From Candidatus Hydrogenedentales bacterium (GTDB lineage Bacteria > Hydrogenedentota > Hydrogenedentia > Hydrogenedentales > SLHB01), in assembly GCA_050950105.1 (NCBI GenBank), contig JBMNGZ010000005.1, positions 320,697 through 384,696 of the forward strand: a DNA stretch of 64,000 nucleotides. Reading direction: 5' to 3'. Position 1 is the stretch's first letter, and each line of letters opens with the position of its first letter. Shown here one piece after another: positions 1 to 13,469 of the stretch. Made by a program: the position numbers and the translations under genes. The notes under the pieces were generated by a model that saw only the letters and a list, made by a program, of their open reading frames with translations, had not been told where the DNA came from and searched no databases.

Positions 1-252
1 GAGCCTTGTATTTTCCTTCGCCGAGAAGTTCCTCTTTTTCAAAAATCCGTCCGCTGAAGAATGTCGCGGCCCGATCGAGTTTCTTGCGCGGTCGCGCGTG
101 CGCATGTCCGCTACATTCGGGGCCTGCCTTTTGGTACAATCGCTGGAATACGCGCGCGGGCATCAGGGTATGTTCGCGGGGTTCGCAGGCATCCTTCACG
201 GGAGAGGACCCCGCGGCCTGCATTTTCCGCGCGGCCGGCATCGGAAAGGAAA

Positions 253-1932
253 ATGGAAGTCCAACGCTCTAATCCTCTTATCGTACAATCCGACCGTTCA
301 ATACTGCTCGAGACCGATGGGCCGCGTTTCGAGGACGCCCGGGACGCGATCGCCCCGTTTGCGGAATTGATCAAATCGCCCGAGCATATTCATACCTACC
401 GAGTCACGCCGCTGTCGCTGTGGAATGCCGCGGCGGCCGGCATGGGCGCCGAGGAGATGATCGTTCATCTCAAGGAATACAGCAAATACGAGGTGCCGGA
501 GAACATTCTGTATGAAATCCGGGACACGGTGGCGCGGTACGGCCGCCTCAAGTTGTATAAGCGCGAGGACGGAATGCTCGTGCTGGAATCTGATGACGCG
601 CTGCTGGTGACGCAGTTGAAACGGCAGAAGTCGTTGCAACCGTTTATCGAAGGGTCAGAAGACGGCCGCCGGGTGATTGTCAAAGCGCTGGAGCGCGGCA
701 ATCTGAAATGTGCGCTGATCAAGCTTGGGTTTCCCGTGGAAGACCTGGCGGGGTATGTGCAGGGCGCACCGCTTGAGTTTGCGTTGCGCGAGATGACCCT
801 GGGCGGGAAGGAATTTTCGCTGCGCAGCTATCAGCTGGAGGCCGTCGATGCGTTCTACGCGGGCGGCTCGAATCGGGGAGGCAGCGGCGCGGTTGTGCTG
901 CCGTGCGGCGCGGGGAAGACCGTGGTGGGTATTGGCGCCATGCACCGCCTTCAGACGCAGACGCTCGTGTTGACGACCAATACCGTGGCGCTGCGCCAGT
1001 GGAAGAGCGAATTGCTCGATAAAACGACCCTGGAGGATGGCGACGTCGGCGAATACAGCGGCGAGACCAAGCAGATCCGGCCCGTGACCATGGCGACCTA
1101 TCAGGTACTAACGTACCGCCGGTCCAAGGACAGCGATTTCGAGCATTTCGGCCTCTTCGATCAGGGCAACTGGGGCCTGGTGATCTATGACGAGGTGCAT
1201 CTCCTGCCGGCTCCGGTGTTCCGGGCGACTGCCACGCTGCAGGCCCGGCGCCGACTCGGCCTGACCGCCACGCTGGTGCGCGAGGATGCCCGTGAAGACG
1301 ACGTGTTCAGCCTGATCGGCCCCAAAAAGTACGACGTACCCTGGAAGGTTCTCGAAAAGCAGGGCTGGATCGCTACGGCCGCCTGTACCGAAGTGCGCAT
1401 CCCGCTTCCTGACGACGAGCGCTACCGCTACGCCATCGCCGACAAGCGCGGCAAGTTCCGCATCGCATCCACCAACCCCATCAAAACCAGTATCTGCCGG
1501 ACCCTGGTGGAACGGCACCGGGGCGACAATGTGCTGATCATCGGTCAATATCTCGACCAGTTGCGGGCGCTTGCCAAGGCGATGAAAGCCCCGCTCATCA
1601 CGGGGCAAACCGCGAACAAAAAGCGCGAAGCGCTGTATGATGCGTTCAGGCAGGGGGAAGAGAGGTTGCTGGTGGTGTCGAAAGTCGCCAATTTCGCTAT
1701 TGATCTGCCCGATGCCAACGTCGCGGTGCAGGTATCCGGCACGTTTGGCTCCCGGCAGGAGGAGGCGCAGCGGCTCGGGCGGATTCTCAGGCCCAAGGAA
1801 GACGGCTCGATCGCCCATTTCTACTCGCTGGTCTCGCGCGATACCTGCGACCAGGATTTCAGCGTTAAACGACAGCTGTTTCTCACGGAACAGGGCTACC
1901 ATTACGAGATCAAAGACTACGAGGAGCTGTAG
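253..1932 (+). CDS. xpb: XPB/Ssl2-family DNA repair helicase (bacterial XPB)
   Basis: XPB N-terminal domain (LIVQSDRSILLE...PEHIHTYRVTPLSLWNA), Walker A LPCGAGKT, DEVH, XPB-specific RED motif (TATLVRED), motif VI QRLGRILR. Start moved to ATG 253 (GGAAAGGA upstream). Confidence 0.92.
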   Translation: MEVQRSNPLIVQSDRSILLETDGPRFEDARDAIAPFAELIKSPEHIHTYRVTPLSLWNAAAAGMGAEEMIVHLKEYSKYEVPENILYEIRDTVARYGRLKLYKREDGMLVLESDDALLVTQLKRQKSLQPFIEGSEDGRRVIVKALERGNLKCALIKLGFPVEDLAGYVQGAPLEFALREMTLGGKEFSLRSYQLEAVDAFYAGGSNRGGSGAVVLPCGAGKTVVGIGAMHRLQTQTLVLTTNTVALRQWKSELLDKTTLEDGDVGEYSGETKQIRPVTMATYQVLTYRRSKDSDFEHFGLFDQGNWGLVIYDEVHLLPAPVFRATATLQARRRLGLTATLVREDAREDDVFSLIGPKKYDVPWKVLEKQGWIATAACTEVRIPLPDDERYRYAIADKRGKFRIASTNPIKTSICRTLVERHRGDNVLIIGQYLDQLRALAKAMKAPLITGQTANKKREALYDAFRQGEERLLVVSKVANFAIDLPDANVAVQVSGTFGSRQEEAQRLGRILRPKEDGSIAHFYSLVSRDTCDQDFSVKRQLFLTEQGYHYEIKDYEEL

Positions 1933-1934
1933 CC

Positions 1935-4900
1935 ATGGGAGCCGTTGATGTGCTTGCTGGACCGGAGGGGTCCGCGCGCACAGAGAGGCTGGATCGCCTG
2001 CTGGCCGAGCAGTGGGGGCGCGCGCTGCTGTTGACCCCGACCCATCTGTTTGCCCGGAAACGGCTCGAGGAACTGCTTGTCAGGCCGGACATTCCGGGCG
2101 CCTGGGGCACACCGGTGAGCACGCTGCAGCGCTTCGCAGAGACCATCTTGCAGGGCGCTGATCCCGATGCCCTGCCTCTCAATGATTTGGAGCGGCGGCT
2201 CGTTTTGCAGGAAGCGCTGCAGCGCCTTCGCAGCGCGGGAGAACTCGAAGACGTCGGACCCGGCAGTGAGACCGCAGGATTTCTTCGCCATCTCCTTCGT
2301 GTATTTGAGAATTTGAAGCAGGCGGCCGTGGAACCGGAGGAGTTCCTGGACTGTGTTCAACGGCGCAGGCATCCCGCCGCCTTGGATCTCGTGGTTGCGC
2401 GCGCGTACCAGGAATATCAGGCCGCGCTCATCGAACGGCAGGCCTACGACCGTATCGGTGTGTATTGGCAGGCCCGCCAGCTTCTTGAAGGGCCAGGAGA
2501 CCTGCCGGTGCTCCAGGGGATCGAACTGGTGGCGCTGGATGGGTTTGACGATTTTACGGAGTCCGAGTTCCGGCTTGTTGCGGCGTTGAGGGAGCGGGTT
2601 GACCGTCTGGTGTTTTCGATGCGTACCGACAAAGCGCCTGGCGGCGCAGACCTCTACCGCCTCCAGCGACAGACCCTGATGCGGCTCGAAACGACGTTTG
2701 AACCGTCGATCGAATGGCTGCCGCCACGTCTGCCCACTACCGCCAGCCAGCATGCGGCCGCCTATCTTCTCTGGCGCGACGACGTTCCACCGGTGGAAGG
2801 ATTGGCATCCAATCTTGAAGTCGTGCCCTGCGCCGGAGCGACCGAGGAGGTCGAGACGATCGGCCGGGCCATCAAGACCCTGATATTGGACGGAGTGCCC
2901 GCGGCCGAGATCGCCATCGTGTACGCGGACTTGGAACAGGCCCGGAATTCGCTGCGCTCGATGGGGCGGGAATTTCAAATTCCGCTTCGCGTGCACGGCG
3001 ATGATCCGCTCGCGTCAAGTTCGGTGTGCGCGTTCGTGCTGGACGCGCTCGAGGCCTCGGACGGATGGAAGCACGGCGAGATCGTGGATTTGCTGACCGC
3101 CCCGTGGATGGATACGGATGATGCCGACGAGGCACTGACGGGCGCGCTCCCCGTAGTTTGCCGGCAGGCGGGCATCGTTGCCGGGCACAAACAATGGGTT
3201 CGGCGGTTACTGCGGATGCGCGTGGAATTATCGAGGTCGCCACGGGATCGCCAGCTTCACGCCGGCCAACTTCTGCGGCGCCATCCCCGCCTGTTGGACG
3301 CAGTGATTACGGCCGAGGCGCGAGTGAAACGGCTGTCACGTGCCCTGGGAATGCTTCCGGCGACTGACGAACTCCACGGATTCTGCCGTGCGACCGCCAA
3401 TTTTCTGGATGCTCTGGCGCTGGGCGACGCCGTGCGAAGATGTGCGCCGGAATCCATACGGGCGAGGGAAATCGCGGCGCTCGAGGCGTTGCAGGAGTTG
3501 CTCGGACGCCTTGACGCGAGGCAATTCAGCATGGGCGGCCCACAGACCCGCGGGGATTTCGCCCGCTTTCTCCGGCAGACCTGCGGCGAGCAGAGCTTTC
3601 ACGCGCCGGAGACTCCGCGGGAACGCCGTGGCGTGCGATGCCTGGGCCTGAGAAGCGTCCGGGGCCTGCGATTCCGCCACGTGTTTGTGGGCGGGTTGAA
3701 TGAAGGCATCGTGCCCGGGCAGCCCGGCGTGAACGCCGTGTATTCAGAGGATGACGTGCGAGAGCTGCGCGATGCCGGGATCCCTCTGGAGCCCCGTGAA
3801 GTGCGCACGGAGCGGGAATTGGCCGCGTTTCATCATGTGCTCGAGGCAGCGCAGGACCGGATCTGGCTTTTCTGGCGGACGGCCACGCCGGATGGGAAGC
3901 CGTTGCTGCGCAGCCCGTTTTTAAATGATCTCCTTCGCCTGTTTGCGTCGAAGCCGGTCGAACGGACGCCTCTGCGCGCCAGCCAGTATTACCCCGCGCT
4001 TTCTCACGCCGCTTCCCACCGCGATGTAATCAACAACCTGTTCGCCACACACACGCGCCTGCCCGAGCCGCTTGCCGCGGAGTTTTCGGCGGTTGTCCGC
4101 GGAGCGGCCATCGAGCAGCGGCGCTACAGCCCCGCGGCCTTCGATGCCTTTGACGGCGTGCTCCGCGAGGAGCGGAACCGGGTGGAGATAGCCGAGCGGT
4201 ATAGCGAGGAACACGTTTTCAGCGCGACGGAATTGGAGGATTACCGCAAGTGTCCGTTTCGTTTTTTTGCATTGCGTCTCTTGCGGATGATGCCGGTCGA
4301 GCGCCCGGTCACGGCGTTTGATCGCAGTCTTCTGGGCATCGTAATACATCAGGTACTCGAGGAATTTCACCGGCGCTATCCCGGCGTGCCGGTACGCGCG
4401 ATCCCGGCGGACGAGGCTGAGGAGGCCATGCGCGGGATCGTCGATTCAGTCTTTATCGAAAATAACGCGGCGATGCTCACGGTGCCCGACGGGATGCTCA
4501 TGGCGGAACGTTTGTCGGTGCATGAGCGGCTCCAGCGCTACCTGCGCATCGAGCGCAGGGAAGAAGTCCCGTGGTATCCCACAGACTTCGAAGCGGTCTT
4601 TGGAGGACCCCGGGAAAAGCAGTACCCGCCCCTGGCGATTTCAACCGAGGCCGGCCTGCTCCGGATGCGCGGCCGCATCGATCGGATTGATCGCGGCGAA
4701 GAAGGGCGCCGCGTGGTCGACTACAAAACGGGCCGGCCTCCGAAAGCTGCCCACGTCAGGGAAGGCGTTTCCCTGCAACTCGTGGCCTATGCACTTGCCC
4801 TGGAGCAGGTGATTGCGCCGGGGACTGTCTGCGAGGAAGGGGTTTTGCTCCAGGTGGGCACGACCGCGCGGCTGGCCGTGCGAGAGTCCGGCCTCGGTAC

Positions 4901-5078
4901 GCTGTGGAACCAGGCAAAGCAAGGCTTTTTCGTGGGAGTGTCCGCGGCGCTTGAAGGGATTCGCGGCGCCTCGTTTCCGCCGCTGCCCCAGCCGGACGTG
5001 TGTGCCTATTGTGATGCCCGGCGGATGTGCCGCATCGATGCGTCGCGGGTCGAGCGAAAACAAGGGGGCGCGCCATGA
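1935..5078 (+). CDS. addB: AddB/RexB-like subunit: inactive helicase fold plus C-terminal PD-(D/E)XK nuclease with Fe-S cysteines
   Basis: Degenerate Walker A (GPEGSART); FSATELEDYRKCPF; GRIDRID...VVDYKTG; QLVAY; C-terminal CAYCDARRMC giving 4 Cys in the AddB staple pattern. Confidence 0.85.
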   Translation: MGAVDVLAGPEGSARTERLDRLLAEQWGRALLLTPTHLFARKRLEELLVRPDIPGAWGTPVSTLQRFAETILQGADPDALPLNDLERRLVLQEALQRLRSAGELEDVGPGSETAGFLRHLLRVFENLKQAAVEPEEFLDCVQRRRHPAALDLVVARAYQEYQAALIERQAYDRIGVYWQARQLLEGPGDLPVLQGIELVALDGFDDFTESEFRLVAALRERVDRLVFSMRTDKAPGGADLYRLQRQTLMRLETTFEPSIEWLPPRLPTTASQHAAAYLLWRDDVPPVEGLASNLEVVPCAGATEEVETIGRAIKTLILDGVPAAEIAIVYADLEQARNSLRSMGREFQIPLRVHGDDPLASSSVCAFVLDALEASDGWKHGEIVDLLTAPWMDTDDADEALTGALPVVCRQAGIVAGHKQWVRRLLRMRVELSRSPRDRQLHAGQLLRRHPRLLDAVITAEARVKRLSRALGMLPATDELHGFCRATANFLDALALGDAVRRCAPESIRAREIAALEALQELLGRLDARQFSMGGPQTRGDFARFLRQTCGEQSFHAPETPRERRGVRCLGLRSVRGLRFRHVFVGGLNEGIVPGQPGVNAVYSEDDVRELRDAGIPLEPREVRTERELAAFHHVLEAAQDRIWLFWRTATPDGKPLLRSPFLNDLLRLFASKPVERTPLRASQYYPALSHAASHRDVINNLFATHTRLPEPLAAEFSAVVRGAAIEQRRYSPAAFDAFDGVLREERNRVEIAERYSEEHVFSATELEDYRKCPFRFFALRLLRMMPVERPVTAFDRSLLGIVIHQVLEEFHRRYPGVPVRAIPADEAEEAMRGIVDSVFIENNAAMLTVPDGMLMAERLSVHERLQRYLRIERREEVPWYPTDFEAVFGGPREKQYPPLAISTEAGLLRMRGRIDRIDRGEEGRRVVDYKTGRPPKAAHVREGVSLQLVAYALALEQVIAPGTVCEEGVLLQVGTTARLAVRESGLGTLWNQAKQGFFVGVSAALEGIRGASFPPLPQPDVCAYCDARRMCRIDASRVERKQGGAP

Positions 5079-8000
5079 AATGGACTGACGCCCAGGCCGA
5101 AGCGATTCAGACAATAGGCCGGGATCTGTGCGTGACGGCCTCGGCAGGCTCCGGCAAGACGGCGGTTTTAGTCGAGCGCATGTTGCACCTGGTGATCGAA
5201 TGCAAGGTCCCTCTGGAGCGCATTGTCGCCATCACGTTTACCGAGAAGGCCGCGGCGGAGATGAAAGACCGGCTTCGCAGCGAGTGCCGGGCACGGGAGC
5301 AGAGCGGGTCTACGGAAGGGCTTGACCGCTGGCGCAGCTTGGCGCGACAGGTCGAGTCCGCCCACATGAGCACCATCCACGCATTCTGCGCGAGGCTGCT
5401 GCGTCAGCACGCCCTGGAATACCGCATCAGCCCGCCTCTCGATCCAGATTTTGCTGTTGTGGACGAAGCCGAGAGCCGCTTTCTGTGCACGGAAGTGGTC
5501 GATACGGCGATCGAGGAGCTTCTCGAACAGCCGCACGATGCCACCATGCGGCTGGCGGCCCATTACGGAGTGTTCCGGCTCAAGGGAATGCTGGAGGTGT
5601 TTCTGCGCAATCCCGTGACAGCCGCCCGGCTTTTGTCCAACGAACAGTTTTCTTCACCCGAAAGGCTCCTGGAATTCTGGCGTGAGCGCGTGGAGGAAAG
5701 CTGCCGGGCACGCTTGCTCAATCTGAGCAAGTCGGCCGTGTTTTACAGCTATCTGCGCAAGTTCATGAAATTTGACGGGCGCTGCGGCGATCCCGCGGAT
5801 GGACGGGAACAGTTTCGCCGCACGTGCATCCAACTCATGGAACAGGTGGGCCGGCTTCGCGATCCCCAGCTGATCGAGCAGCTGATAGTGGCCTGTCTCG
5901 AAGAGAAATTACCCCGGACCTTGAAGTCTAACTGGCCCTCGGTAGAAGTCTTTGACGAACTCAAAGAGACCCAGGACGCCTTCAAAAGCTATTTGCGGGG
6001 ATTTTTGATGCCGCACCATGACCCGGACGTCGAACAGCAGAGCGCCGAACTGACGTGTGATGCTGTCGCGTGTTTCCGGGCGGTTTTTGATTATTATCGG
6101 GAGGCCAAGACCTCGAGAAATGTGCTGGATTTCACCGATCTCATTCTTTTGGCGCTCGATATGCTCCAGAGCCAGCCGGAGCTGTGCGAGCGTATCGCCC
6201 GCGGCATCGACTACCTGCTCATTGATGAATTCCAGGACACCGATTCCGAACAGTACGCCATTGCCCGCCTGCTTAGTGGGACGCCGGTCCCCCCGGAATT
6301 GTTCATTGTGGGCGATGCAAAACAATCGATCTATCGGTTCCGGGGCGCTGAGGTCGAAGTGTTTGAAGCCGCAAAACAAGAAAGCCGGACCATCGGTTTG
6401 CACCGGAATTTCCGCACCGTTCCCGAAATTATCTCGTTCATTAATTATATTTTCAACGCCAGCGGCATCCTCGAAGCGGTGGAATCGCCGTTTGTGCCCG
6501 CCGACGCCCATCGAGCCCCCACCGGCGAATGCCGGGTCCATGTGCTGATACCCGCCGCCACGCAGGACAAAGAGTTGAGCGAACAAAGGCGCATGCGTGA
6601 GGCGGCGATGATCGGGGATTGGATTGCCGCCGCCTGCTCGGGCGAACGCGAGGTCCAGGTGCAGGCCAAGGGCAGCGATGCGATGCGCAGGGCGACATTC
6701 GGCGACATGGCGCTGCTGTTCCGCGCCCTCAGCGACATCCGTATCTACGAGCGCGCGCTGGCGGAACGCCAGATCCCCTTCCATGTTATCGCCGGGAAAG
6801 GATTTTACGAACGCCAGGAGGTCCTGGACCTGCGCAATCTCCTTGAGGCGCTTGTCGATCCCTGGCACGAACCCGCACTGCTGGGATTCCTGCGGAGCCC
6901 CATGGCCGGACTGGACGACGATTCCATTCTGGCGCTCTGCGCCGGCCCGGGCGCGGTAGCCGCGCTCCTCGAAGACCGTACACCGCCCGATTTCAGACAG
7001 ACCGCCGAGCTCGACCATGCGCGCCGGGTGTTCCAGGAACTGCGCGCCGAGCGCGAGCGGCCTCTGCCGGATTTTGTGCGCTATGTGCTCGAACGAACGG
7101 GCTGCGAGGCCATGGTGGCCGGCCTTTTCCTGGGCGATCAACGAGTCTGCAATGTGCGCAAAGTGATGCAGCTGGCCGAGACCTTTGTGAAGACGCGCCG
7201 GCCCCGTCTCAGCGCCTTTGTGCGCTATCTGGACGATGTGGCGTCCGCGGAGATCGATGAGGGCGAGGCGAGCCTGCAGTCCGAAGGTTCCGACGAAGTC
7301 ACGCTCATGAGTATCCACAAATCGAAGGGCCTGGAATTTCCAATCGTGATTCTTCCCGATCTCTCACGCGGCTCGCGTCAAAGAGCGAGCATCAGCCGGG
7401 TGCTGTTTCACCGGCGCCTGGGAATTGTCGCGAGGCCGTACAACCCCGCAGCGGAGCGCACGACGGAGCCGCAGATCTACGAGGTGATGAAGCGAGACGA
7501 AGACGCCAAGGAGGCGGCGGAACGCGCACGGGTATTGTACGTGGCCATGACGCGGGCGCGGGACTGGCTTGTCCTGGGCGGCTCTGTCGCTTCGAAAAAA
7601 CGCCCCAAAGCCGCGTCGGACAGTCTGCTGGGACCGATCGCTGACGAGCTGGATCTGCTGAACCGTGGCGACGGGGCATTGCTCTCCGGTGAAGGCTGGA
7701 CTGCGCTCGTCCGCCGCAGCACGAAATCCAAAGCTATCGACGCCCCAGCCCGTGAACCGGCGCCCCAGATAGACTGGCAAGTCTTGACCCAACGACTGGG
7801 CCCCGCCCCGGCCATTCCCGCAAGCCAACTCACTTTTGCCGTCACCACGCTCGTGCAGCGCATGTATCCATCCAACGAAGAAGCCGCGGCGGGCGGTGTC
7901 CGCGACGCATCCGCACTCGATCCTCTGTTGCGCGGGACCCTGGTGCACCGCTATTTCGAGCTGTGGGATTTCCAGCACAAGCCCCCGGACATTGATGCGT

Positions 8001-8467
8001 TTCTTCGCAGAGAAAAGCCGTCTCTCCATCTGGCGGACCGGCTGCGCGACACGCTGGAGACTGCGGTTCAGCGATTTATGGCGTCCGAAGCATGGCCCCT
8101 CGTGACCGGGGCTCGTGAGATTCTGCGCGAAGCGCCGTTCATGCTGCGCGTGGGCGATGCCGTGCTCGAAGGCGTGATCGACGTCGTACTGGACGGGAAT
8201 GCGGTCCTCGATTACAAGACCGGGCTCCACTGTGAAAGCCGGCGCTTGATGTATGACGCTCAATTGTGCCTCTATGCCGAGGCCCTGCGGCGCCTGCGCG
8301 GCCGGCTGCCCGAGCGCGCCTGGGTCTACTACGTTGACTCGGGCGAGCTGGTCGAGACCGACATTTCCCCGGGCCGGACCGCCGCCGCGCTGGCGCTTGC
8401 CGAGAAGACCATGAAAACGCTGCGGAGTGAGCCCGTGCCCGACGAAATGGAGGCCTATCTGCAGTGA
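5075..8467 (+). CDS. addA: AddA/RexA-like UvrD helicase with RecB-family nuclease
   Basis: MKWTDAQ Q-motif, ASAGSGKT, IDEFQDT, VGDAKQSIYRFRGA, SIHKSKGLEF, YVAMTRA; nuclease GVID...DYKTG, QLCLY. ATGA overlap with the addB stop. Confidence 0.9.
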   Translation: MKWTDAQAEAIQTIGRDLCVTASAGSGKTAVLVERMLHLVIECKVPLERIVAITFTEKAAAEMKDRLRSECRAREQSGSTEGLDRWRSLARQVESAHMSTIHAFCARLLRQHALEYRISPPLDPDFAVVDEAESRFLCTEVVDTAIEELLEQPHDATMRLAAHYGVFRLKGMLEVFLRNPVTAARLLSNEQFSSPERLLEFWRERVEESCRARLLNLSKSAVFYSYLRKFMKFDGRCGDPADGREQFRRTCIQLMEQVGRLRDPQLIEQLIVACLEEKLPRTLKSNWPSVEVFDELKETQDAFKSYLRGFLMPHHDPDVEQQSAELTCDAVACFRAVFDYYREAKTSRNVLDFTDLILLALDMLQSQPELCERIARGIDYLLIDEFQDTDSEQYAIARLLSGTPVPPELFIVGDAKQSIYRFRGAEVEVFEAAKQESRTIGLHRNFRTVPEIISFINYIFNASGILEAVESPFVPADAHRAPTGECRVHVLIPAATQDKELSEQRRMREAAMIGDWIAAACSGEREVQVQAKGSDAMRRATFGDMALLFRALSDIRIYERALAERQIPFHVIAGKGFYERQEVLDLRNLLEALVDPWHEPALLGFLRSPMAGLDDDSILALCAGPGAVAALLEDRTPPDFRQTAELDHARRVFQELRAERERPLPDFVRYVLERTGCEAMVAGLFLGDQRVCNVRKVMQLAETFVKTRRPRLSAFVRYLDDVASAEIDEGEASLQSEGSDEVTLMSIHKSKGLEFPIVILPDLSRGSRQRASISRVLFHRRLGIVARPYNPAAERTTEPQIYEVMKRDEDAKEAAERARVLYVAMTRARDWLVLGGSVASKKRPKAASDSLLGPIADELDLLNRGDGALLSGEGWTALVRRSTKSKAIDAPAREPAPQIDWQVLTQRLGPAPAIPASQLTFAVTTLVQRMYPSNEEAAAGGVRDASALDPLLRGTLVHRYFELWDFQHKPPDIDAFLRREKPSLHLADRLRDTLETAVQRFMASEAWPLVTGAREILREAPFMLRVGDAVLEGVIDVVLDGNAVLDYKTGLHCESRRLMYDAQLCLYAEALRRLRGRLPERAWVYYVDSGELVETDISPGRTAAALALAEKTMKTLRSEPVPDEMEAYLQ

Positions 8468-9426
8468 AAAGGCTTGTCCTGGCGGTCTGCCTTGCGAGCC
8501 TGACGTTTTCGGCGTGGGGGGCGGCCGCTCAGACGCTTCAGGACGGTCTCTTCTATGTGGACTATCCGCAAGGCGAGTACCAGACGGCCGTGGTCACCCT
8601 GGAGAATCTCCAGCGGATCGCTGCGGCCTGGCGCCACCGGCTTGATCCCGGAGATGCTCCAATTGTAGTGCGCATCTGCGCGACTCAGGGTGATTTTGCT
8701 GCAAATGCCGGGTTCTGGGCGCCGGCAGAAGTGGGGGGCGTCGCCCATTCAGAAGAAGGACGTATCGTGTTGCGCACACCGGCGCAGTTGCCGAATCCAG
8801 GCCTCTATGAGGGGATGGTGCGGCACGAACTGATTCATGTCCTGCTGGCGCGCAACACCAACTTGGAGCATCTGCCGCGATGGTTGAATGAAGGCACGGC
8901 CATGCATATCTCGGGGGAGCACCGCTGGAACACCTCGTTTCTTGTCGCTCGGATGTATCTGTCGGGCCGGCTCTACACCTACGACGATCTGATGCTCGAT
9001 TTCAGCATGGTGAGAGGCGAGCGGCCGTTCGGCGATCTTTACGCGCAGAGCCTCTCGATGACCGCTTTCCTGTACGACCGGCTCGGCGAGGAGGCCTTCT
9101 GGGGCCTGCTTGGCTCCCTTCGCGACAAAGACTTTTCGGTAGCGTTGCAGGAGAGCGCCGGCATGACCCCGCACGAGTTTTGGGCCGCCTGGTACCGTTC
9201 GCTCTGGAAAGTTGCCGTTATCTCCGCTGTTATGTCAGGATTCGGCATATTCGATTTCATGGCACTGCTTGTGGTCGTGGGGTATTTTCGAAGACGCCGT
9301 CACAACCGCAAGGTCCTCGACCGGTGGGAACGGGAAGAAGCCGAAGAACCACCGATGATGGCGGCGTGGGAACTCGAGGGCGGCAGTGAATATCCCTGGG
9401 AACTGGACGACGAGGAAGAACTGTGA
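8464..9426 (+). CDS. Secreted peptidase MA-like (gluzincin) protein with C-terminal TM anchor and acidic tail
   Basis: Signal peptide; HELIH (HExxH) followed by WLNEG; hydrophobic C-terminal helix then RRRR and an acidic tail; GTGA overlap with addA. Confidence 0.75.
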   Translation: MKRLVLAVCLASLTFSAWGAAAQTLQDGLFYVDYPQGEYQTAVVTLENLQRIAAAWRHRLDPGDAPIVVRICATQGDFAANAGFWAPAEVGGVAHSEEGRIVLRTPAQLPNPGLYEGMVRHELIHVLLARNTNLEHLPRWLNEGTAMHISGEHRWNTSFLVARMYLSGRLYTYDDLMLDFSMVRGERPFGDLYAQSLSMTAFLYDRLGEEAFWGLLGSLRDKDFSVALQESAGMTPHEFWAAWYRSLWKVAVISAVMSGFGIFDFMALLVVVGYFRRRRHNRKVLDRWEREEAEEPPMMAAWELEGGSEYPWELDDEEEL

Positions 9427-9477
9427 CCTTGCGCGGCTCGGCGGCGCGAATGCGGAAAAATCCGTCAAGAAGGTGGT

Positions 9478-11526
9478 ATGGACAGCAGACTGAATGTTGA
9501 GGCGTTGAAAGCGAGTCCCGGGCACGGGATCCCCCTTGGGGCTTCGGTGGGCGAAACCGGTGTGCATTTCGCGCTGGTGAGCCGTCATGCCAGGCGCGTG
9601 TGGCTGGCCTTGTTCGACAACCCGGACGACGCGCGTCCCGCCGTGGAGTTCGAGCTGGACGCAGAGCGCAACCGCATCGGCGACGTGTGGAGCATTTTTA
9701 TCGAAAACCTGCATGCGGGCGCGTATTACCTTTTCCGCTTGGACGGGCCCTATGATCCGCCCAAAGGCCACCTCTTCAACCCGGACTGCTATGTGCTCGA
9801 TCCGTATGCGCTGATGGTGACCGGCAGCGTGCAGGATTTCGAGGCCAAGTGCGTGGTCGTCGATATTGAGCGTGGCTGGGAGCCGTATCTCCGGTCGCAA
9901 ACGCGCAAAACGAACTCGATTGTGTACGAGGTGCACATCAAAGGGTTTACCGCGCACGAATCCTCAGGCGTGGGGCATCGCGGGACCTATCGCGGCTTTA
10001 TTGAGAAGATTCCGTATCTCCAGGAGCTGGGCGTCACTGCGGTCGAGCTTATGCCGGTGCAGGAAGTCGGTGAGGAGCAGCTCAAACGCCGGAACCCAAA
10101 GACGGGTGAACGTCTCAAGAACTACTGGGGCTACGCGCCCATCGCGTTTTTTGCTCCGGCCGCGCGATTCGGAAGCAAAGGAGGTATTGGCGAACAATTG
10201 CTCGAATTTCGCGAGCTGGTTTCGGCGTTGCACGAGGCCGGGCTCGAGGTCATTCTCGACGTGGTGTTCAACCACACCGCCGAAGGCGATGAAAAGGGCC
10301 CCACGCTCTGCTTCCGCGGTATCGATCACTCGATCTATTATCTGCTTGATGCTGACGGAAGATGCCTGAACTTTACAGGCTGCGGCAACACGGTGAACTG
10401 CAACCATCCGTTTGTGCGCGACCTGATCGGCGACTGCCTGCGGTACTGGACCACCGTCATGCGGGTCGACGGATTTCGTTTCGATCTGGCGTCGGTTCTC
10501 GGCCGCGATCAAAGCGGGAAACTCGTGGAAAACGCCCCGATCATCGAGCGCATCGCCGAGGACCCTATCCTGCGCGATGTAAAACTCACTGCGGAGGCTT
10601 GGGACGTGGGCGGCGCCTACCAGGTCGGCTCCTTCGGCAACAACGGGCGCTGGTCGGAACTCAACGGCAAGTTTCGCGACGATGTCCGCCGGTATTGGAT
10701 CAATGATCCGGATGCGAAGGGCGCCTTTGCGCTGCGCATCACCGGCAGCCCCGATCTGTACCAGGATGATGGCCGGCGGCCGATTCACAGCGTCAATTTC
10801 GTCACTTCTCATGACGGATTCACCCTGAACGATCTCGTCTCCTACAACAAGAAGCACAACGAGGCCAACGGGGAAGGAAACCGGGATGGGCTGGACCACA
10901 ATCACAGCTACAACTTCGGAGTCGAAGGCGAAACCAATGATCCGGCCATTCTGGCGCTGCGCCTGCAGATGCAACGCAACTTTCTCGCGACCCTTTTCAT
11001 CTCGCTCGGCGTGCCCATGCTTCTCGGGGGCGATGAATTCGGGCGCACTCAGAAAGGCAACAACAACGCTTACTGCCAGGACAACGAGATCTCATGGCAC
11101 GACTGGAGATTGTTGGAGAAAAATGCCGCCCTGTTCCGCTTTTGTAAGGGTATGATCCAGTTTCGTAAAGAAAACGCCGTGTTCGAGCGTTCGACGTTCT
11201 ATACCGGCAACCCGTCGCGGAAAGGCGCTAAACCCGATGTGCGCTGGTTCAGGCCAGACGCTCACGCGCAGGATTGGCAGCCCGCTCAGCCGGCCCTGGG
11301 ATTCTGGATTAATGCCACCGAAAACGACGGCGTCCCTCTCTATCTGTTGTTCAACCCTACGCCGGTCGACATCGAATTCATCCTGCCCAGCGGAGACTGG
11401 TGGCTGCGCGTGAACACCGCCGCTACGTCGCCCGGCGACCTGTATGCGGCCGACAAAGCGCCGCGTGCCGGCGAGACGGGCAAAATGACCGTGGCCGGCC
11501 GTTCGATGGTAATTCTCTCCGGCTGA
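9478..11526 (+). CDS. glgX: Glycogen debranching enzyme (GH13 isoamylase)
   Basis: NYWGY, DVVFNHT, GFRFDLAS (Asp), AEAWD (Glu), SHDGFTL (Asp), GNNNAYCQDN. Confidence 0.95.
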   Translation: MDSRLNVEALKASPGHGIPLGASVGETGVHFALVSRHARRVWLALFDNPDDARPAVEFELDAERNRIGDVWSIFIENLHAGAYYLFRLDGPYDPPKGHLFNPDCYVLDPYALMVTGSVQDFEAKCVVVDIERGWEPYLRSQTRKTNSIVYEVHIKGFTAHESSGVGHRGTYRGFIEKIPYLQELGVTAVELMPVQEVGEEQLKRRNPKTGERLKNYWGYAPIAFFAPAARFGSKGGIGEQLLEFRELVSALHEAGLEVILDVVFNHTAEGDEKGPTLCFRGIDHSIYYLLDADGRCLNFTGCGNTVNCNHPFVRDLIGDCLRYWTTVMRVDGFRFDLASVLGRDQSGKLVENAPIIERIAEDPILRDVKLTAEAWDVGGAYQVGSFGNNGRWSELNGKFRDDVRRYWINDPDAKGAFALRITGSPDLYQDDGRRPIHSVNFVTSHDGFTLNDLVSYNKKHNEANGEGNRDGLDHNHSYNFGVEGETNDPAILALRLQMQRNFLATLFISLGVPMLLGGDEFGRTQKGNNNAYCQDNEISWHDWRLLEKNAALFRFCKGMIQFRKENAVFERSTFYTGNPSRKGAKPDVRWFRPDAHAQDWQPAQPALGFWINATENDGVPLYLLFNPTPVDIEFILPSGDWWLRVNTAATSPGDLYAADKAPRAGETGKMTVAGRSMVILSG

Positions 11527-11584
11527 CAAGCTCCGGGCGCACGTTCGACACATGAGGCCGGCGCCAGTCCGGTCCCGGGCTTGC

Positions 11585-12439
11585 TCACATGGCAGAGAAC
11601 ATGGACTGAAAATCGATTATGGGGGAGGTCTGCATGCGTTGTGCCGCGTTCAGGACGGCTCCGGCCACCGCACAACCGGCCCCAAAGCACAGGGCGGCGG
11701 CGTAGAGGGCCAGGCCGGCTTCAAACACTTTGCGCAGGGTATTGCGCCAGGGCCTTGGGACCGGCAGTCCGGCCATCACGGCCAGCGGCGTCAGGATGAA
11801 GAGGGTCCAGAAAAACAGCGCGCCATCGTATCGCTGGAGCCAGTTCCAGAGACCGGAGAGAACCAGGGCTTCGTTGAACAGCAGGCCGTAGCCGTAATCC
11901 AGGAGCGCGACAAACCCCCACGCCACGTAGCGCAACAACACCGCGCCCAGTATCACGCCCAGCACATACCTGGTCAGGACCCATTTTTCGATGGGAGACG
12001 AAGCACTGCGCCCGGATGCGCGCTGCATAAAGAACAATCCGATGTAAATGACCAGTGCGAATGGCCCGATGAGCAGGCCCAACACGATGGCCCCCAGGCG
12101 CACCTGCGCTGGGCGCCTGCCGGTCTGCTCGCCAATGGCCGCACAGACGCCCAGCCAGCGGCGTTCCTCCTCGAATTGGGTCGCGCGCGCCGCGTCTTGG
12201 TCGAGCGCTTCGGCCAGGCGATGGGCATGATGCGCGGCAGGGCCTACGGCACGCAACGCATGCTCGATATCTTCGTCGCCCGGTATGGCGCCGTCCGGCG
12301 ACGGCACCGCCCTGAGAAGCTCCGAGCGCGCCTTTTTGAGAACGCGCTCGCGCTGGCGTTCGGGCAGATCGCTCATATGTTCGCCCATTCGGCGCAGATA
12401 GCGCCCAATGGCGCGCTCTTGCTGGTCCGTAAGTCTCAT
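11585..12439 (-). CDS. HAAS domain + PspC-like domain membrane protein
   Basis: N-terminal YLRRM..HMSDLPERQRERVL...LRAVGPA (HAAS-like), then RRWLGVCAAIGEQTGRRPAQVRLGAIVLGL (PspC-like) and about 3 more TM helices. ATG 12439 with GGAGG SD. Confidence 0.65.
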   Translation of the reverse strand: MRLTDQQERAIGRYLRRMGEHMSDLPERQRERVLKKARSELLRAVPSPDGAIPGDEDIEHALRAVGPAAHHAHRLAEALDQDAARATQFEEERRWLGVCAAIGEQTGRRPAQVRLGAIVLGLLIGPFALVIYIGLFFMQRASGRSASSPIEKWVLTRYVLGVILGAVLLRYVAWGFVALLDYGYGLLFNEALVLSGLWNWLQRYDGALFFWTLFILTPLAVMAGLPVPRPWRNTLRKVFEAGLALYAAALCFGAGCAVAGAVLNAAQRMQTSPIIDFQSMFSAM

Positions 12440-12572
12440 GCCTCCTCCGCGGTGAAGGAAAGTATACCCCACGCGGAGAAACGGGACCAAATTCGGGAAA
12501 AGACGGCCCTGCGAAACGAAACCGAGCCTCATCAGGGGCGTAAACGGCCCGTGGGGCTACGTCTCAAATGAC

Positions 12573-13469
12573 TTACAGCGCCGCGACTTCGACCCGGCAG
12601 TACCAGTCCGGGACGGGCGTAGCCGGGGTCTCGATTTCTCGCTCCGCAGCGCCGCTTTGAGCGGGTGCCGGAGCACTGTTCGCGGGTATCAGGGCGCTAA
12701 TCGACGCGGCAGCGCGCAGGTCAACGGAAACTACATCGAAGCGCCCACGGGCTTGCTCGACGAAGTCTTTCAGCGGTGTGCAGCCTGTGGCGGAGCCAAT
12801 GGCGGTGGTTTCAACCTGCCGCGCACCGGCTTCCACGGCCGCCAAAGCATGGTGGACGGCCTGGCCGGAGCTGTTGTGGCAGCAGGCCGAGATGATGGCC
12901 CGTGACTCCACGAACTGGACGATGTCGCGCACCATTTCCGTGTAGGCCGCGGTTTTGGCAGTACCCGTGCCGTCGGGGACCGCAATGCGTATCGCGCCCG
13001 CGTTGATGGCAACACCTATGCACTGCCGCCGGAACGGCCGTTCCATGGCCTCCATGCCGTCGATCGAGAACTGGGCCTCGATTCCCTCGGCGCGAACGGC
13101 CGTAACGGCTTTTTCTATTGCGCGGCACCATTCGACGCGCTTTCCGCCACTGCGGGCCGGGTCAGACGGCAGGTACACATGAACCAGTGGTTTCGCGGCA
13201 TGCCTGACGGCGTCGAGCGCGGCGGCGATCTCGGCCGGGTCACAGGCGGCCAAAGCGGCCACTTGGGACGCGCTGATGCTCTTTGCCACGGCGGTGACCA
13301 GGGCGCGTTGCGCCGGGGACTGGGCGGGATGCCCCGCCTCAATGGTTGAAACGCCGGCCTGTTCCAGCACGCGCGCGATGGCGGTGGCCTGGTCTACGGA
13401 AACGGCCGGGCCGGTCCACGCGAAGCGTTGAGACAGCGTGGTATCGTAGATTCGAACTGCTCCGGGCAT
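12573..13469 (-). CDS. 2-isopropylmalate synthase (LeuA/HMGL-like) catalytic-domain homolog, catalytically degenerate
   Basis: Colinear with the LeuA TIM barrel (IYDTTL, IEAG, GAIRIAVPD, IISACCHN, AVEAGARQVE), but RDGEQ, HxH and GERAGN are lost and there is no regulatory domain. SD GAAGGAG. Confidence 0.8.
   Translation of the reverse strand: MPGAVRIYDTTLSQRFAWTGPAVSVDQATAIARVLEQAGVSTIEAGHPAQSPAQRALVTAVAKSISASQVAALAACDPAEIAAALDAVRHAAKPLVHVYLPSDPARSGGKRVEWCRAIEKAVTAVRAEGIEAQFSIDGMEAMERPFRRQCIGVAINAGAIRIAVPDGTGTAKTAAYTEMVRDIVQFVESRAIISACCHNSSGQAVHHALAAVEAGARQVETTAIGSATGCTPLKDFVEQARGRFDVVSVDLRAAASISALIPANSAPAPAQSGAAEREIETPATPVPDWYCRVEVAAL

What the first reader, a model, noticed from the sequence alone, without database searches (positions are those of the whole stretch)
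253..8467. Bacterial XPB helicase packed into one operon with an AddAB helicase-nuclease
Seen: xpb TAG (1930-1932) is 2 nt before the addB ATG, and addB/addA overlap by ATGA. XPB keeps Walker A/B and the RED motif. AddA and AddB both keep nuclease motifs, and AddB has 4 Fe-S cysteines. Known: archaeal XPB is commonly paired with the Bax1 nuclease, and the role of bacterial XPB is poorly defined; AddAB resects double-strand break ends. Inference: XPB may work as an accessory unwinding or protein-clearing motor for AddAB resection, forming a three-subunit repair module.
Basis: partly seen in the sequence, partly recalled or inferred. Interest (0 to 1): 0.7.

Follow-up and report, generated by a model that had tools for sequence, protein, structure and literature searches.

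The report
XPB helicase gene heading an AddAB operon
In one group of uncultured bacteria (Hydrogenedentota), an ordinary XPB repair helicase gene sits directly in front of ordinary AddAB break-repair genes and is probably co-transcribed with them, but comparison with about 160 related loci gives no sign that the three proteins form one machine.

Summary
addB overlaps addA (5075-8467) by ATGA.

XPB scores as a true bacterial XPB. AddB folds like Bacillus subtilis AddB and keeps four invariant cysteines.

The linkage is not general. In 163 fetched XPB loci, addBA follows xpb only inside one well-supported clade, the core Hydrogenedentota. There it has broken at least three times.

In that clade the xpb-addB junction is kept in 22 of 30 lineages. 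That is no better than addA-exported peptidase (10 of 13) or peptidase-glgX (7 of 9), which are unrelated functions.

AddA and AddB distances co-vary strongly (r = 0.97). XPB against AddAB gives 0.61-0.64, below the unrelated controls (0.74-0.75).

Outside the clade, XPB usually sits beside a p52/Tfb2-like partner. None is adjacent here.

Best reading: a lineage-specific operon with xpb next to the promoter that co-expresses two separate repair enzymes. A three-subunit XPB-AddAB machine is neither excluded nor supported.

The parts
132..140 (+). Candidate extended -10 promoter element TGgTACAAT, about 112 nt upstream of the xpb ATG
   Evidence: TTTTG(G/A)TACAAT is invariant in the window and four relatives of its subclade, L084, L085, L087 and L088. 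In 35 of 51 other clade loci the same type of element (TGnTAnACT) lies 6-9 nt, mostly 8 nt, before the xpb ATG. No transcription data are available.
141..252 (+). Candidate 5' leader of xpb ending in an SD-like GGAAAGGA (243-250)
   Evidence: The leader is conserved in the subclade alignment and GGAAAGG is invariant. The predicted hairpins have almost no covariation support in only 4 sequences. No Rfam family matches.
253..1932 (+). xpb: bacterial XPB/ERCC3-type SF2 helicase, 559 aa
   Evidence: NCBIfam NF045503 repair_heli_XPB scores 877 bits against a cutoff of 610, full length. Pfam finds Helicase_C_3 (N-terminal domain), ResIII and ERCC3_RAD25_C. The best solved relatives are eukaryotic TFIIH XPB/Rad25 at E = 4e-87.
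1935..5078 (+). addB: AddB-type subunit, 1047 aa, with an inactive helicase-like N-terminal part, a RecB-family nuclease and 4 Fe-S cysteines
   Evidence: Pfam finds ADDB_N and PDDEXK_1. The AlphaFold2 model (pLDDT 87.5, pTM 0.76) matches B. subtilis AddB 3U44_B over its full length (TM 0.79/0.73, E = 5e-39), well ahead of AdnA and RecC. C773, C1023, C1026 and C1032 and GRIDRID..DYK are invariant. The P-loop is degenerate (G9..S13.R15, with K replaced by R).
5075..8467 (+). addA: AddA-type SF1A UvrD-like helicase with a C-terminal RecB-family nuclease, 1130 aa
   Evidence: Pfam finds UvrD-helicase, UvrD_C and AAA_19. The best solved relative is B. subtilis AddA 3U44_A at E = 1.3e-62 over residues 2-843, ahead of AdnB (about 1e-30) and RecB (9e-29). 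GSGKT, DEFQDT and DYKT are conserved in 19 clade homologues.
8464..9426 (+). Exported MA-clan HExxH metallopeptidase gene, overlapping the addA stop by 4 nt; part of the conserved block, function unrelated to DNA
   Evidence: Pfam finds Peptidase_MA_2. Most homologues examined have a hydrophobic signal-peptide-like N-terminus, and all have HELxH. The gene follows addA in 10 of 13 lineages that could be scored.
9478..11526 (+). glgX, glycogen debranching enzyme; last gene of the conserved block
   Evidence: NCBIfam TIGR02100 scores 712 bits against a cutoff of 641. It follows the peptidase gene in 7 of 9 lineages that could be scored.

Best explanation
This is a lineage-specific operon, or synteny block, of the core Hydrogenedentota: xpb-addB-addA-(exported peptidase)-(glgX).

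Shown: xpb encodes a normal, slowly evolving bacterial XPB helicase. addB and addA encode a normal AddAB-type DNA-end helicase-nuclease, with one active SF1A motor in AddA, two RecB-type nucleases, and an Fe-S cysteine set with a dead P-loop in AddB.

Inferred: transcription starts just upstream of xpb. In most relatives this would be a leaderless mRNA. In the window's own subclade it would carry a leader of about 105 nt. Translation of addB, addA and the peptidase gene would be coupled through stop/start junctions of 0-4 nt with embedded SD-like sequences. XPB and AddAB are therefore made together.

My reading is that they act as separate enzymes. AddAB resects double-strand ends as it does elsewhere. 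XPB acts as an independent DNA translocase or 3'-5' helicase, possibly with a partner encoded elsewhere. The adjacency arose once at the base of the clade and has mostly been inherited passively, like the adjacency to the peptidase gene and glgX.
For: Family identities.

Single origin: all 30 non-identical AddAB-linked XPBs fall in one clade of 48 rows with support 99. None of the loci outside it has addBA within 10 kb.

Losses: 8 clade loci with enough flank have intact xpb followed by unrelated genes (alternative-oxidase-like, 5'-nucleotidase, ThiG, periplasmic binding protein, HAD). Well-supported branches force at least 4 changes.

Control for synteny: xpb-addB is kept in 22/30 lineages, addA-peptidase in 10/13 and peptidase-glgX in 7/9. 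The peptidase is exported.

Control for co-evolution: AddB against AddA gives r = 0.97. XPB against AddB and AddA gives 0.61 and 0.64. XPB against the peptidase and GlgX gives 0.74 and 0.75.

XPB looks unchanged. Its N-terminal domain is not relaxed (71% identity within the linked loci against 83% for RecA1), and only 2 residues separate the clade from partner-linked XPBs.

Operon signals: the promoter-like element lies before xpb only. Most junctions are 0-30 nt. No sigma-70-like site lies on the + strand inside the block.

More distant addBA pairs have no xpb upstream.
Against: The adjacency has survived while AddB diverged to 28-38% identity and the upstream neighbours changed completely. 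Some selection for co-expression is therefore plausible.

In this clade the usual p52/Tfb2-like neighbour of bacterial XPB is missing from the locus, and addB occupies exactly its position. That could mean a change of partner.

XPB distances are small, so the mirror-tree test has low power.

Confidence: 0.6

Rival explanations
1. XPB is a working accessory of AddAB in these bacteria, either as a third subunit or as a recruited second motor. As an SF2 duplex translocase it would open or clear protein-bound or blocked DNA ends ahead of the single-motor AddAB. In effect it would replace the p52-like partner seen with XPB in other phyla.
For: There is a translational-coupling-type junction (0-4 nt in many lineages) with an SD-like GAGGAG or GAGGAC embedded in the last xpb codons. 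The adjacency is kept in 22 of 30 lineages across deep AddAB divergence. No p52-like partner is adjacent anywhere in the clade, nor in the 64-kb window, while 44 loci elsewhere have one. The XPB N-terminal domain is still strongly conserved, so it presumably still binds something.
Against: The adjacency has one evolutionary origin and at least 3 losses with XPB retained. It is kept no better than the adjacency to an exported peptidase and glgX. There is no XPB-AddAB rate co-variation above the controls, against r = 0.97 for AddA-AddB. AddA and AddB are of ordinary length and the AddB fold has no extra domain. No XPB-N-terminal-like 'clutch' domain occurs in AddA or AddB. The acidic XPB tail that carries the SD-like codons also occurs in unlinked relatives.
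Confidence: 0.2
2. The genes are merely neighbours. addBA is transcribed mainly from its own internal promoter inside the 3' part of xpb, so even co-expression is not enforced.
For: Some clade members have gaps of 190-1370 nt, or an inserted gene, between xpb and addB (L104, L107, L108, L110, L124). In those lineages addBA can evidently be expressed on its own. Promoter rules for this phylum are unknown.
Against: In the window the gap is 2 nt, and no promoter-like site was found on the + strand. The TGnTAnnnT element that marks the xpb start is not seen before addB at the tight junctions.
Confidence: 0.1
3. The trio is a defence or foreign-DNA-degrading island, as seen for AddAB-like pairs attached to phosphorothioate or other defence systems, rather than housekeeping repair.
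For: PADLOC gives partial hits of XPB to PbeA helicase models and of AddA to GajB and DRT helicase models.
Against: Those hits are superfamily-level and partial. XPB is the equivalog-level repair XPB and is 72-77% identical across the clade. GC content is level with the surroundings. The block sits among core metabolic genes and is inherited vertically. No mobile-element or modification genes are adjacent.
Confidence: 0.03

Closest known systems
Bacillus subtilis AddAB helicase-nuclease (PDB 3U44, 3U4Q, 4CEH-4CEJ)
   Same: The gene pair is ordered addB then addA. AddA has an active SF1A motor and a RecB-type nuclease. AddB has a helicase-like but inactive N-terminal part, a RecB-type nuclease and four Fe-S cysteines. 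The modelled AddB matches 3U44_B over its full length (TM 0.79), and AddA's best solved relative is 3U44_A.
   Different: Identity to B. subtilis AddB is only about 17%. Scores fall below the NCBIfam equivalog cutoffs for Gram-positive and alphaproteobacterial AddA and AddB. The AddB P-loop lysine is replaced by arginine throughout the clade. xpb precedes the pair in the same operon.
Mycobacterium tuberculosis XPB (Rv0861c), the characterised bacterial XPB (PMC3353954)
   Same: The architecture is the same: an eukaryote-like N-terminal domain, two RecA domains and a RED motif, with no long C-terminal extension. It belongs to the same NCBIfam equivalog family.
   Different: The genomic partner differs. 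The paper states that no XPB-containing helicase-nuclease complex had been identified in bacteria. Actinobacterial loci fetched here (L077, L082, L083) carry an adjacent Helicase_C_3 protein.
Bacterial XPB plus p52/Tfb2-like 'helicase-associated domain' partner, the commonest arrangement in other phyla; compare the XPB-p52 clutch of TFIIH (PMC6422496)
   Same: It is the same XPB family, with a conserved N-terminal domain. In TFIIH that domain pairs with the structurally homologous p52 clutch domain.
   Different: No such partner lies within 10 kb in any of the 38 clade loci with enough flank (30 linked, 8 unlinked), nor in the 64-kb window. Here addB occupies the position directly downstream of xpb.
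Archaeal XPB-Bax1 helicase-nuclease (PMC7293015, PMC7672443)
   Same: An XPB gene lies next to a nuclease-encoding gene.
   Different: There is no Bax1 homologue here. This XPB is far closer to eukaryotic XPB (E = 4e-87) than to archaeal XPB (E = 1e-46). The neighbouring nuclease is a complete, self-sufficient AddAB.

Membership tests
Bacterial XPB (NCBIfam NF045503, repair_heli_XPB) | Full-length match above the curated equivalog cutoff | tested here: met
   877 bits against a cutoff of 610; residues 8-553 match profile positions 1-547 of 548.
Bacterial XPB (NCBIfam NF045503, repair_heli_XPB) | SF2 motifs (Walker A GxGKT, DEVH), the RED motif and the XPB N-terminal domain (PF13625) | tested here: met
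   GAGKT, DEVH and RED are present. They are invariant or at least 90% conserved in 34 XPBs. PF13625 covers residues 9-130 at E = 1e-36.
Bacterial XPB (NCBIfam NF045503, repair_heli_XPB) | DNA-dependent ATPase and 3'-5' helicase activity | not testable with these tools
   This needs purified protein.
AddAB-type helicase-nuclease | AddA: an SF1A UvrD-like motor with intact Walker A and B, plus a C-terminal RecB-family nuclease | tested here: met
   3U44_A is the best solved relative at E = 1.3e-62.
AddAB-type helicase-nuclease | AddB: full-length AddB fold with a helicase-like N-terminal part and a C-terminal nuclease | tested here: met
   The model has pLDDT 87.5. It matches 3U44_B at TM 0.79/0.73 and E = 5e-39, against AdnA at 0.58 and RecC at 0.55.
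AddAB-type helicase-nuclease | AddB Fe-S 'staple': one Cys before the nuclease domain and C-x2-C-x5-C after it | tested here: met
   C773, C1023, C1026 and C1032 are invariant in 25 and in 21 homologues. Binding of a cluster was not tested.
AddAB-type helicase-nuclease | Score above the NCBIfam equivalog cutoffs (TIGR02773 or TIGR02786 for AddB; TIGR02785 or TIGR02784 for AddA) | tested here: not met
   AddB scores 118 bits against 904, and 83 against 487. AddA scores 362 against 708, and 265 against 861. Those models describe the Gram-positive and alphaproteobacterial subfamilies, so this is a divergent third lineage of the same architecture.
AddAB-type helicase-nuclease | Chi-regulated resection of double-strand ends | not testable with these tools
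   This needs biochemistry or genetics.
XPB-Bax1 helicase-nuclease pair | A Bax1-family nuclease encoded next to xpb | tested here: not met
   No Bax1 family appears among the Pfam hits for the five genes downstream of xpb. The upstream neighbours lack it too.
XPB with a p52/Tfb2-like partner | An adjacent protein with a C-terminal Helicase_C_3 (XPB-N-terminal-like, clutch) domain | tested here: not met
   An HMM of the XPB N-terminal domain finds only XPB itself in the 64-kb window, and nothing further in any clade locus.
Known anti-phage defence systems (PADLOC) | A full-length match to a defence-system protein model | tested here: not met
   Only partial, superfamily-level helicase and nuclease hits were found.

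The most novel reading that the evidence does not exclude
In core Hydrogenedentota, XPB has exchanged its usual p52-like partner for AddAB. The three proteins would form a new kind of end-processing machine in which an SF2 duplex translocase works with the single-motor AddAB. That would be the first assigned cellular role and partner for a bacterial XPB.
Probability: 0.15. Interest if true: 0.75.

Novelty: new member of a known kind. Interest (0 to 1): 0.35.

Why it matters
Reviews still describe the cellular role of bacterial XPB as elusive. Any conserved genomic partner is therefore a lead. This survey shows that the AddAB linkage is real, but confined to one phylum-level clade and no stronger than ordinary synteny. 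It should be treated as a cheap, testable hypothesis, not as evidence for a complex. The wider pattern across other phyla, where XPB sits next to a p52/Tfb2-like protein, is the stronger clue to XPB biology. The Hydrogenedentota are a natural case in which that neighbour is missing from the locus.

Tried and rejected
I could not test for a second AddAB, RecBCD or AdnAB, for UvrABC, or for a p52-like partner elsewhere in the genome.
- Transcript evidence: the only 'RNA' run holding the locus (X1) has flat depth of about 24-26 across all genes and contigs up to 72 kb. It is effectively DNA and was set aside.
- A profile search for the p52-like partner in the 5.8-billion-protein collection returned only 38 hits, none named Hydrogenedentes. 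The word prefilter is too insensitive for this divergent family, so this is no evidence of absence.
- Searches for a LexA-box-like or other palindromic operator upstream of xpb found nothing shared among lineages.
- An SD constraint on the XPB C-terminal codons: 25 of 33 linked loci have a GAGG/GGAG/AGGA-type run, but the acidic tail and some such runs also occur in unlinked relatives, so this is not diagnostic.
- A structured leader RNA in the window's subclade: hairpins are predicted, but there is essentially no covariation in 4 sequences and no Rfam match.
- Defence-island reading: rejected (and the genomic context).
- Multimer modelling by fusing chains is not possible with the tool's input rules, because the genes are in different reading frames.
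- Papers: no report of an XPB-AddAB linkage was found.
Full report
**Observation**

The window carries five co-directional genes at its left end:
- xpb, 253-1932
- addB, 1935-5078
- addA, 5075-8467
- an MA-clan peptidase gene, 8464-9426
- glgX, 9478-11526

The xpb TAG is followed by CC and then the addB ATG. addB and addA overlap as ATGA. The peptidase GTG also overlaps the addA TGA. Purine-rich SD-like runs lie before the starts: GAGGAG (1921-1926) 8 nt before addB, AAGGGGG 6 nt before addA, and GGAGG 10 nt before the peptidase gene. GC content is even across the block.

**Identity of the parts**

XPB reaches 877 bits on NCBIfam NF045503 (cutoff 610) over its full length. It has the XPB N-terminal domain (PF13625), GAGKT, DEVH and RED. 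Its nearest solved relatives are eukaryotic TFIIH XPB (E = 4e-87), not archaeal XPB (E = 1e-46).

AddA is closest to B. subtilis AddA (3U44_A, E = 1.3e-62), ahead of AdnB and RecB. It keeps its motor and nuclease motifs in 19 clade homologues.

AddB has ADDB_N and PDDEXK_1. An AlphaFold2 model (pLDDT 87.5) superposes on B. subtilis AddB over its whole length (TM 0.79/0.73, E = 5e-39). AdnA and RecC match clearly worse. C773, C1023, C1026 and C1032 and GRIDRID..DYK are invariant. The P-loop is degenerate throughout the clade, with K replaced by R.

Both Add subunits score below the curated equivalog cutoffs for the Gram-positive and alphaproteobacterial subfamilies. This is a divergent AddAB lineage with canonical architecture. 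PADLOC gives only superfamily-level hits.

**Organism**

Named close homologues of XPB and AddB are all Candidatus Hydrogenedentes or Hydrogenedentota.

**Is the adjacency general?**

I aligned 34 diverse bacterial XPBs and fetched 80 XPB loci from species-representative genomes of many phyla. I fetched 80 more from metagenomes with the window's own XPB, plus loci from exact-protein look-ups.

tblastn with the window's AddB and AddA finds them downstream of xpb only where XPB is at least about 71% identical to the window's. Outside that group no locus has them.

On an XPB tree of 155 non-identical sequences, all 30 linked rows fall in one clade of 48 rows with support 99. That clade also holds 8 loci with ample flank and no addBA. 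Well-supported branches force at least 4 changes, that is one gain and at least three losses.

In the unlinked clade members, xpb is intact and followed by unrelated genes: alternative-oxidase-like, 5'-nucleotidase, ThiG, a periplasmic binding protein and HAD.

From the AddB side, more distant addB-addA pairs (25-28% identity) have no xpb upstream.

**What XPB sits next to elsewhere**

An HMM of the XPB N-terminal domain finds a second protein carrying that domain next to xpb in 44 loci from many phyla. These partners are 480-920 aa long and usually lie immediately downstream.

Pfam confirms Helicase_C_3 in all 8 partners tested. Four of them also have sub-threshold Tfb2 (p52) similarity at the same place. 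This matches the XPB-p52 clutch geometry described for TFIIH.

One divergent Hydrogenedentota genome (L055) has this partner. None of the 48 clade rows does, and the 64-kb window holds no second such domain. In the linked loci, addB occupies exactly the position that the partner holds elsewhere.

**Tests of whether adjacency means function**

1. Retention, counted per lineage (XPB clustered at 90% identity): xpb-addB 22/30, addA-peptidase 10/13, peptidase-glgX 7/9. Most peptidase homologues examined carry signal-peptide-like N-termini, and all carry HELxH, so the protein is exported. The xpb-addB junction is therefore kept no better than junctions between plainly unrelated functions. The upstream neighbours of xpb differ among lineages.
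2. Rate co-variation over 16 lineages: AddB against AddA gives r = 0.97, as expected for an obligate complex. XPB against AddB and AddA gives 0.61 and 0.64. That is below XPB against the peptidase (0.74) and against GlgX (0.75). XPB evolves about four to five times more slowly than AddAB (mean distance 0.28 against 1.1-1.3). This also limits the power of the test.
3. XPB in the clade is not remodelled. The N-terminal domain is 71% identical within the linked loci, against 83% for RecA1. The ratio is the same or higher than in partner-linked XPBs. Only two positions distinguish the clade.
4. AddA and AddB have no extra domain and no clutch-like domain.

**Transcription signals**

In 35 of 51 clade loci an extended -10 element, TGnTA(C/G/A)ACT, ends 6-9 nt before the xpb ATG, and exactly 8 nt before it in nearly all of them. 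This spacing is that of a leaderless mRNA. It is present in both linked and unlinked loci.

The window's own subclade lacks the element at that place. Instead it has an invariant TTTTG(G/A)TACAAT about 112 nt upstream (window 132-140), followed by a conserved leader ending in GGAAAGG.

No comparable element precedes addB at the tight junctions. The consensus scan finds no + strand promoter or convincing terminator inside the block. So xpb is the gene next to the promoter, and co-transcription of addBA is likely though not shown. In a few lineages the gap is 190-1370 nt, so addBA can also be expressed separately.

**Conclusion**

The comparative evidence favours co-expressed but separate enzymes inherited as part of a five-gene block.

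A functional XPB-AddAB partnership remains possible, at about 0.15-0.2. Its main support is the missing p52-like neighbour and the long persistence of the junction.

I found no paper reporting this linkage. Earlier notes from this scan describe the same arrangement in another genome, and the p52-like partner in other phyla. I re-tested both patterns here.

**Limits**

No true RNA data were available. Multimer modelling was not available.

Noticed in passing
L001-L137, immediately upstream of xpb; window 132-140: An extended -10 element, TGnTA(C/G/A)ACT, ends 6-9 nt (mostly exactly 8 nt) before the xpb ATG in 35 of 51 Hydrogenedentota loci, which is a leaderless-mRNA signature. In the window's subclade the same kind of element lies about 112 nt upstream and is followed by a conserved leader with SD-like GGAAAGG. 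That suggests a switch from leaderless to leadered expression.
   Followed up: partly
L007, L014, L018, L055, L067, L077, L133, L140 and 36 other loci: In many phyla, bacterial XPB is directly followed (sometimes preceded) by a 480-920 aa protein. Its C-terminal part carries the XPB N-terminal-domain fold (PF13625), with weak Tfb2/p52 similarity. Some Chloroflexota loci (L056, L062, L068, L013) carry two such genes in tandem.
   Followed up: partly
L015, L016, L019, L023: Contigs labelled as archaeal (uncultured archaeon, Methanophagales, Thorarchaeota) carry bacterial-type XPB 62-64% identical to the window's. Three of them also have the p52-like partner nearby. This is either mis-binning or transfer into archaea.
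   Followed up: no
window 253-8467 against L001-L137: XPB is 72-77% identical between genomes whose AddB is only 28-38% and AddA 34-44% identical. XPB is also 56-64% identical across phyla, which is unusually slow evolution for a helicase of unknown role.
   Followed up: partly
window 1959-1982 (AddB residues 9-16): The AddB P-loop reads G-x3-S-x-R-T, with the Walker A lysine replaced by arginine. G9, S13 and R15 are at least 90% conserved in the clade, so the degenerate site is itself conserved.
   Followed up: partly
window 8464-9426: An exported HExxH (Peptidase_MA_2) gene overlaps the addA stop by 4 nt and follows addA in most lineages. A secreted protease is thus apparently translationally coupled to a DNA-repair operon.
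   Followed up: partly
window 11552-12571 (+) and 11585-12532 (-): The long + strand ORF after glgX matches no family. The public gene call on an identical contig takes the opposite strand instead, as a weakly PspC-like protein. The + ORF is probably spurious.
   Followed up: no
run X1 laid on window 1-12600: A run filed as metagenomic 'RNA-Seq' gives flat depth of about 24-26 over all genes and contigs up to 72 kb. It behaves like a DNA library and should not be used as expression evidence.
   Followed up: yes
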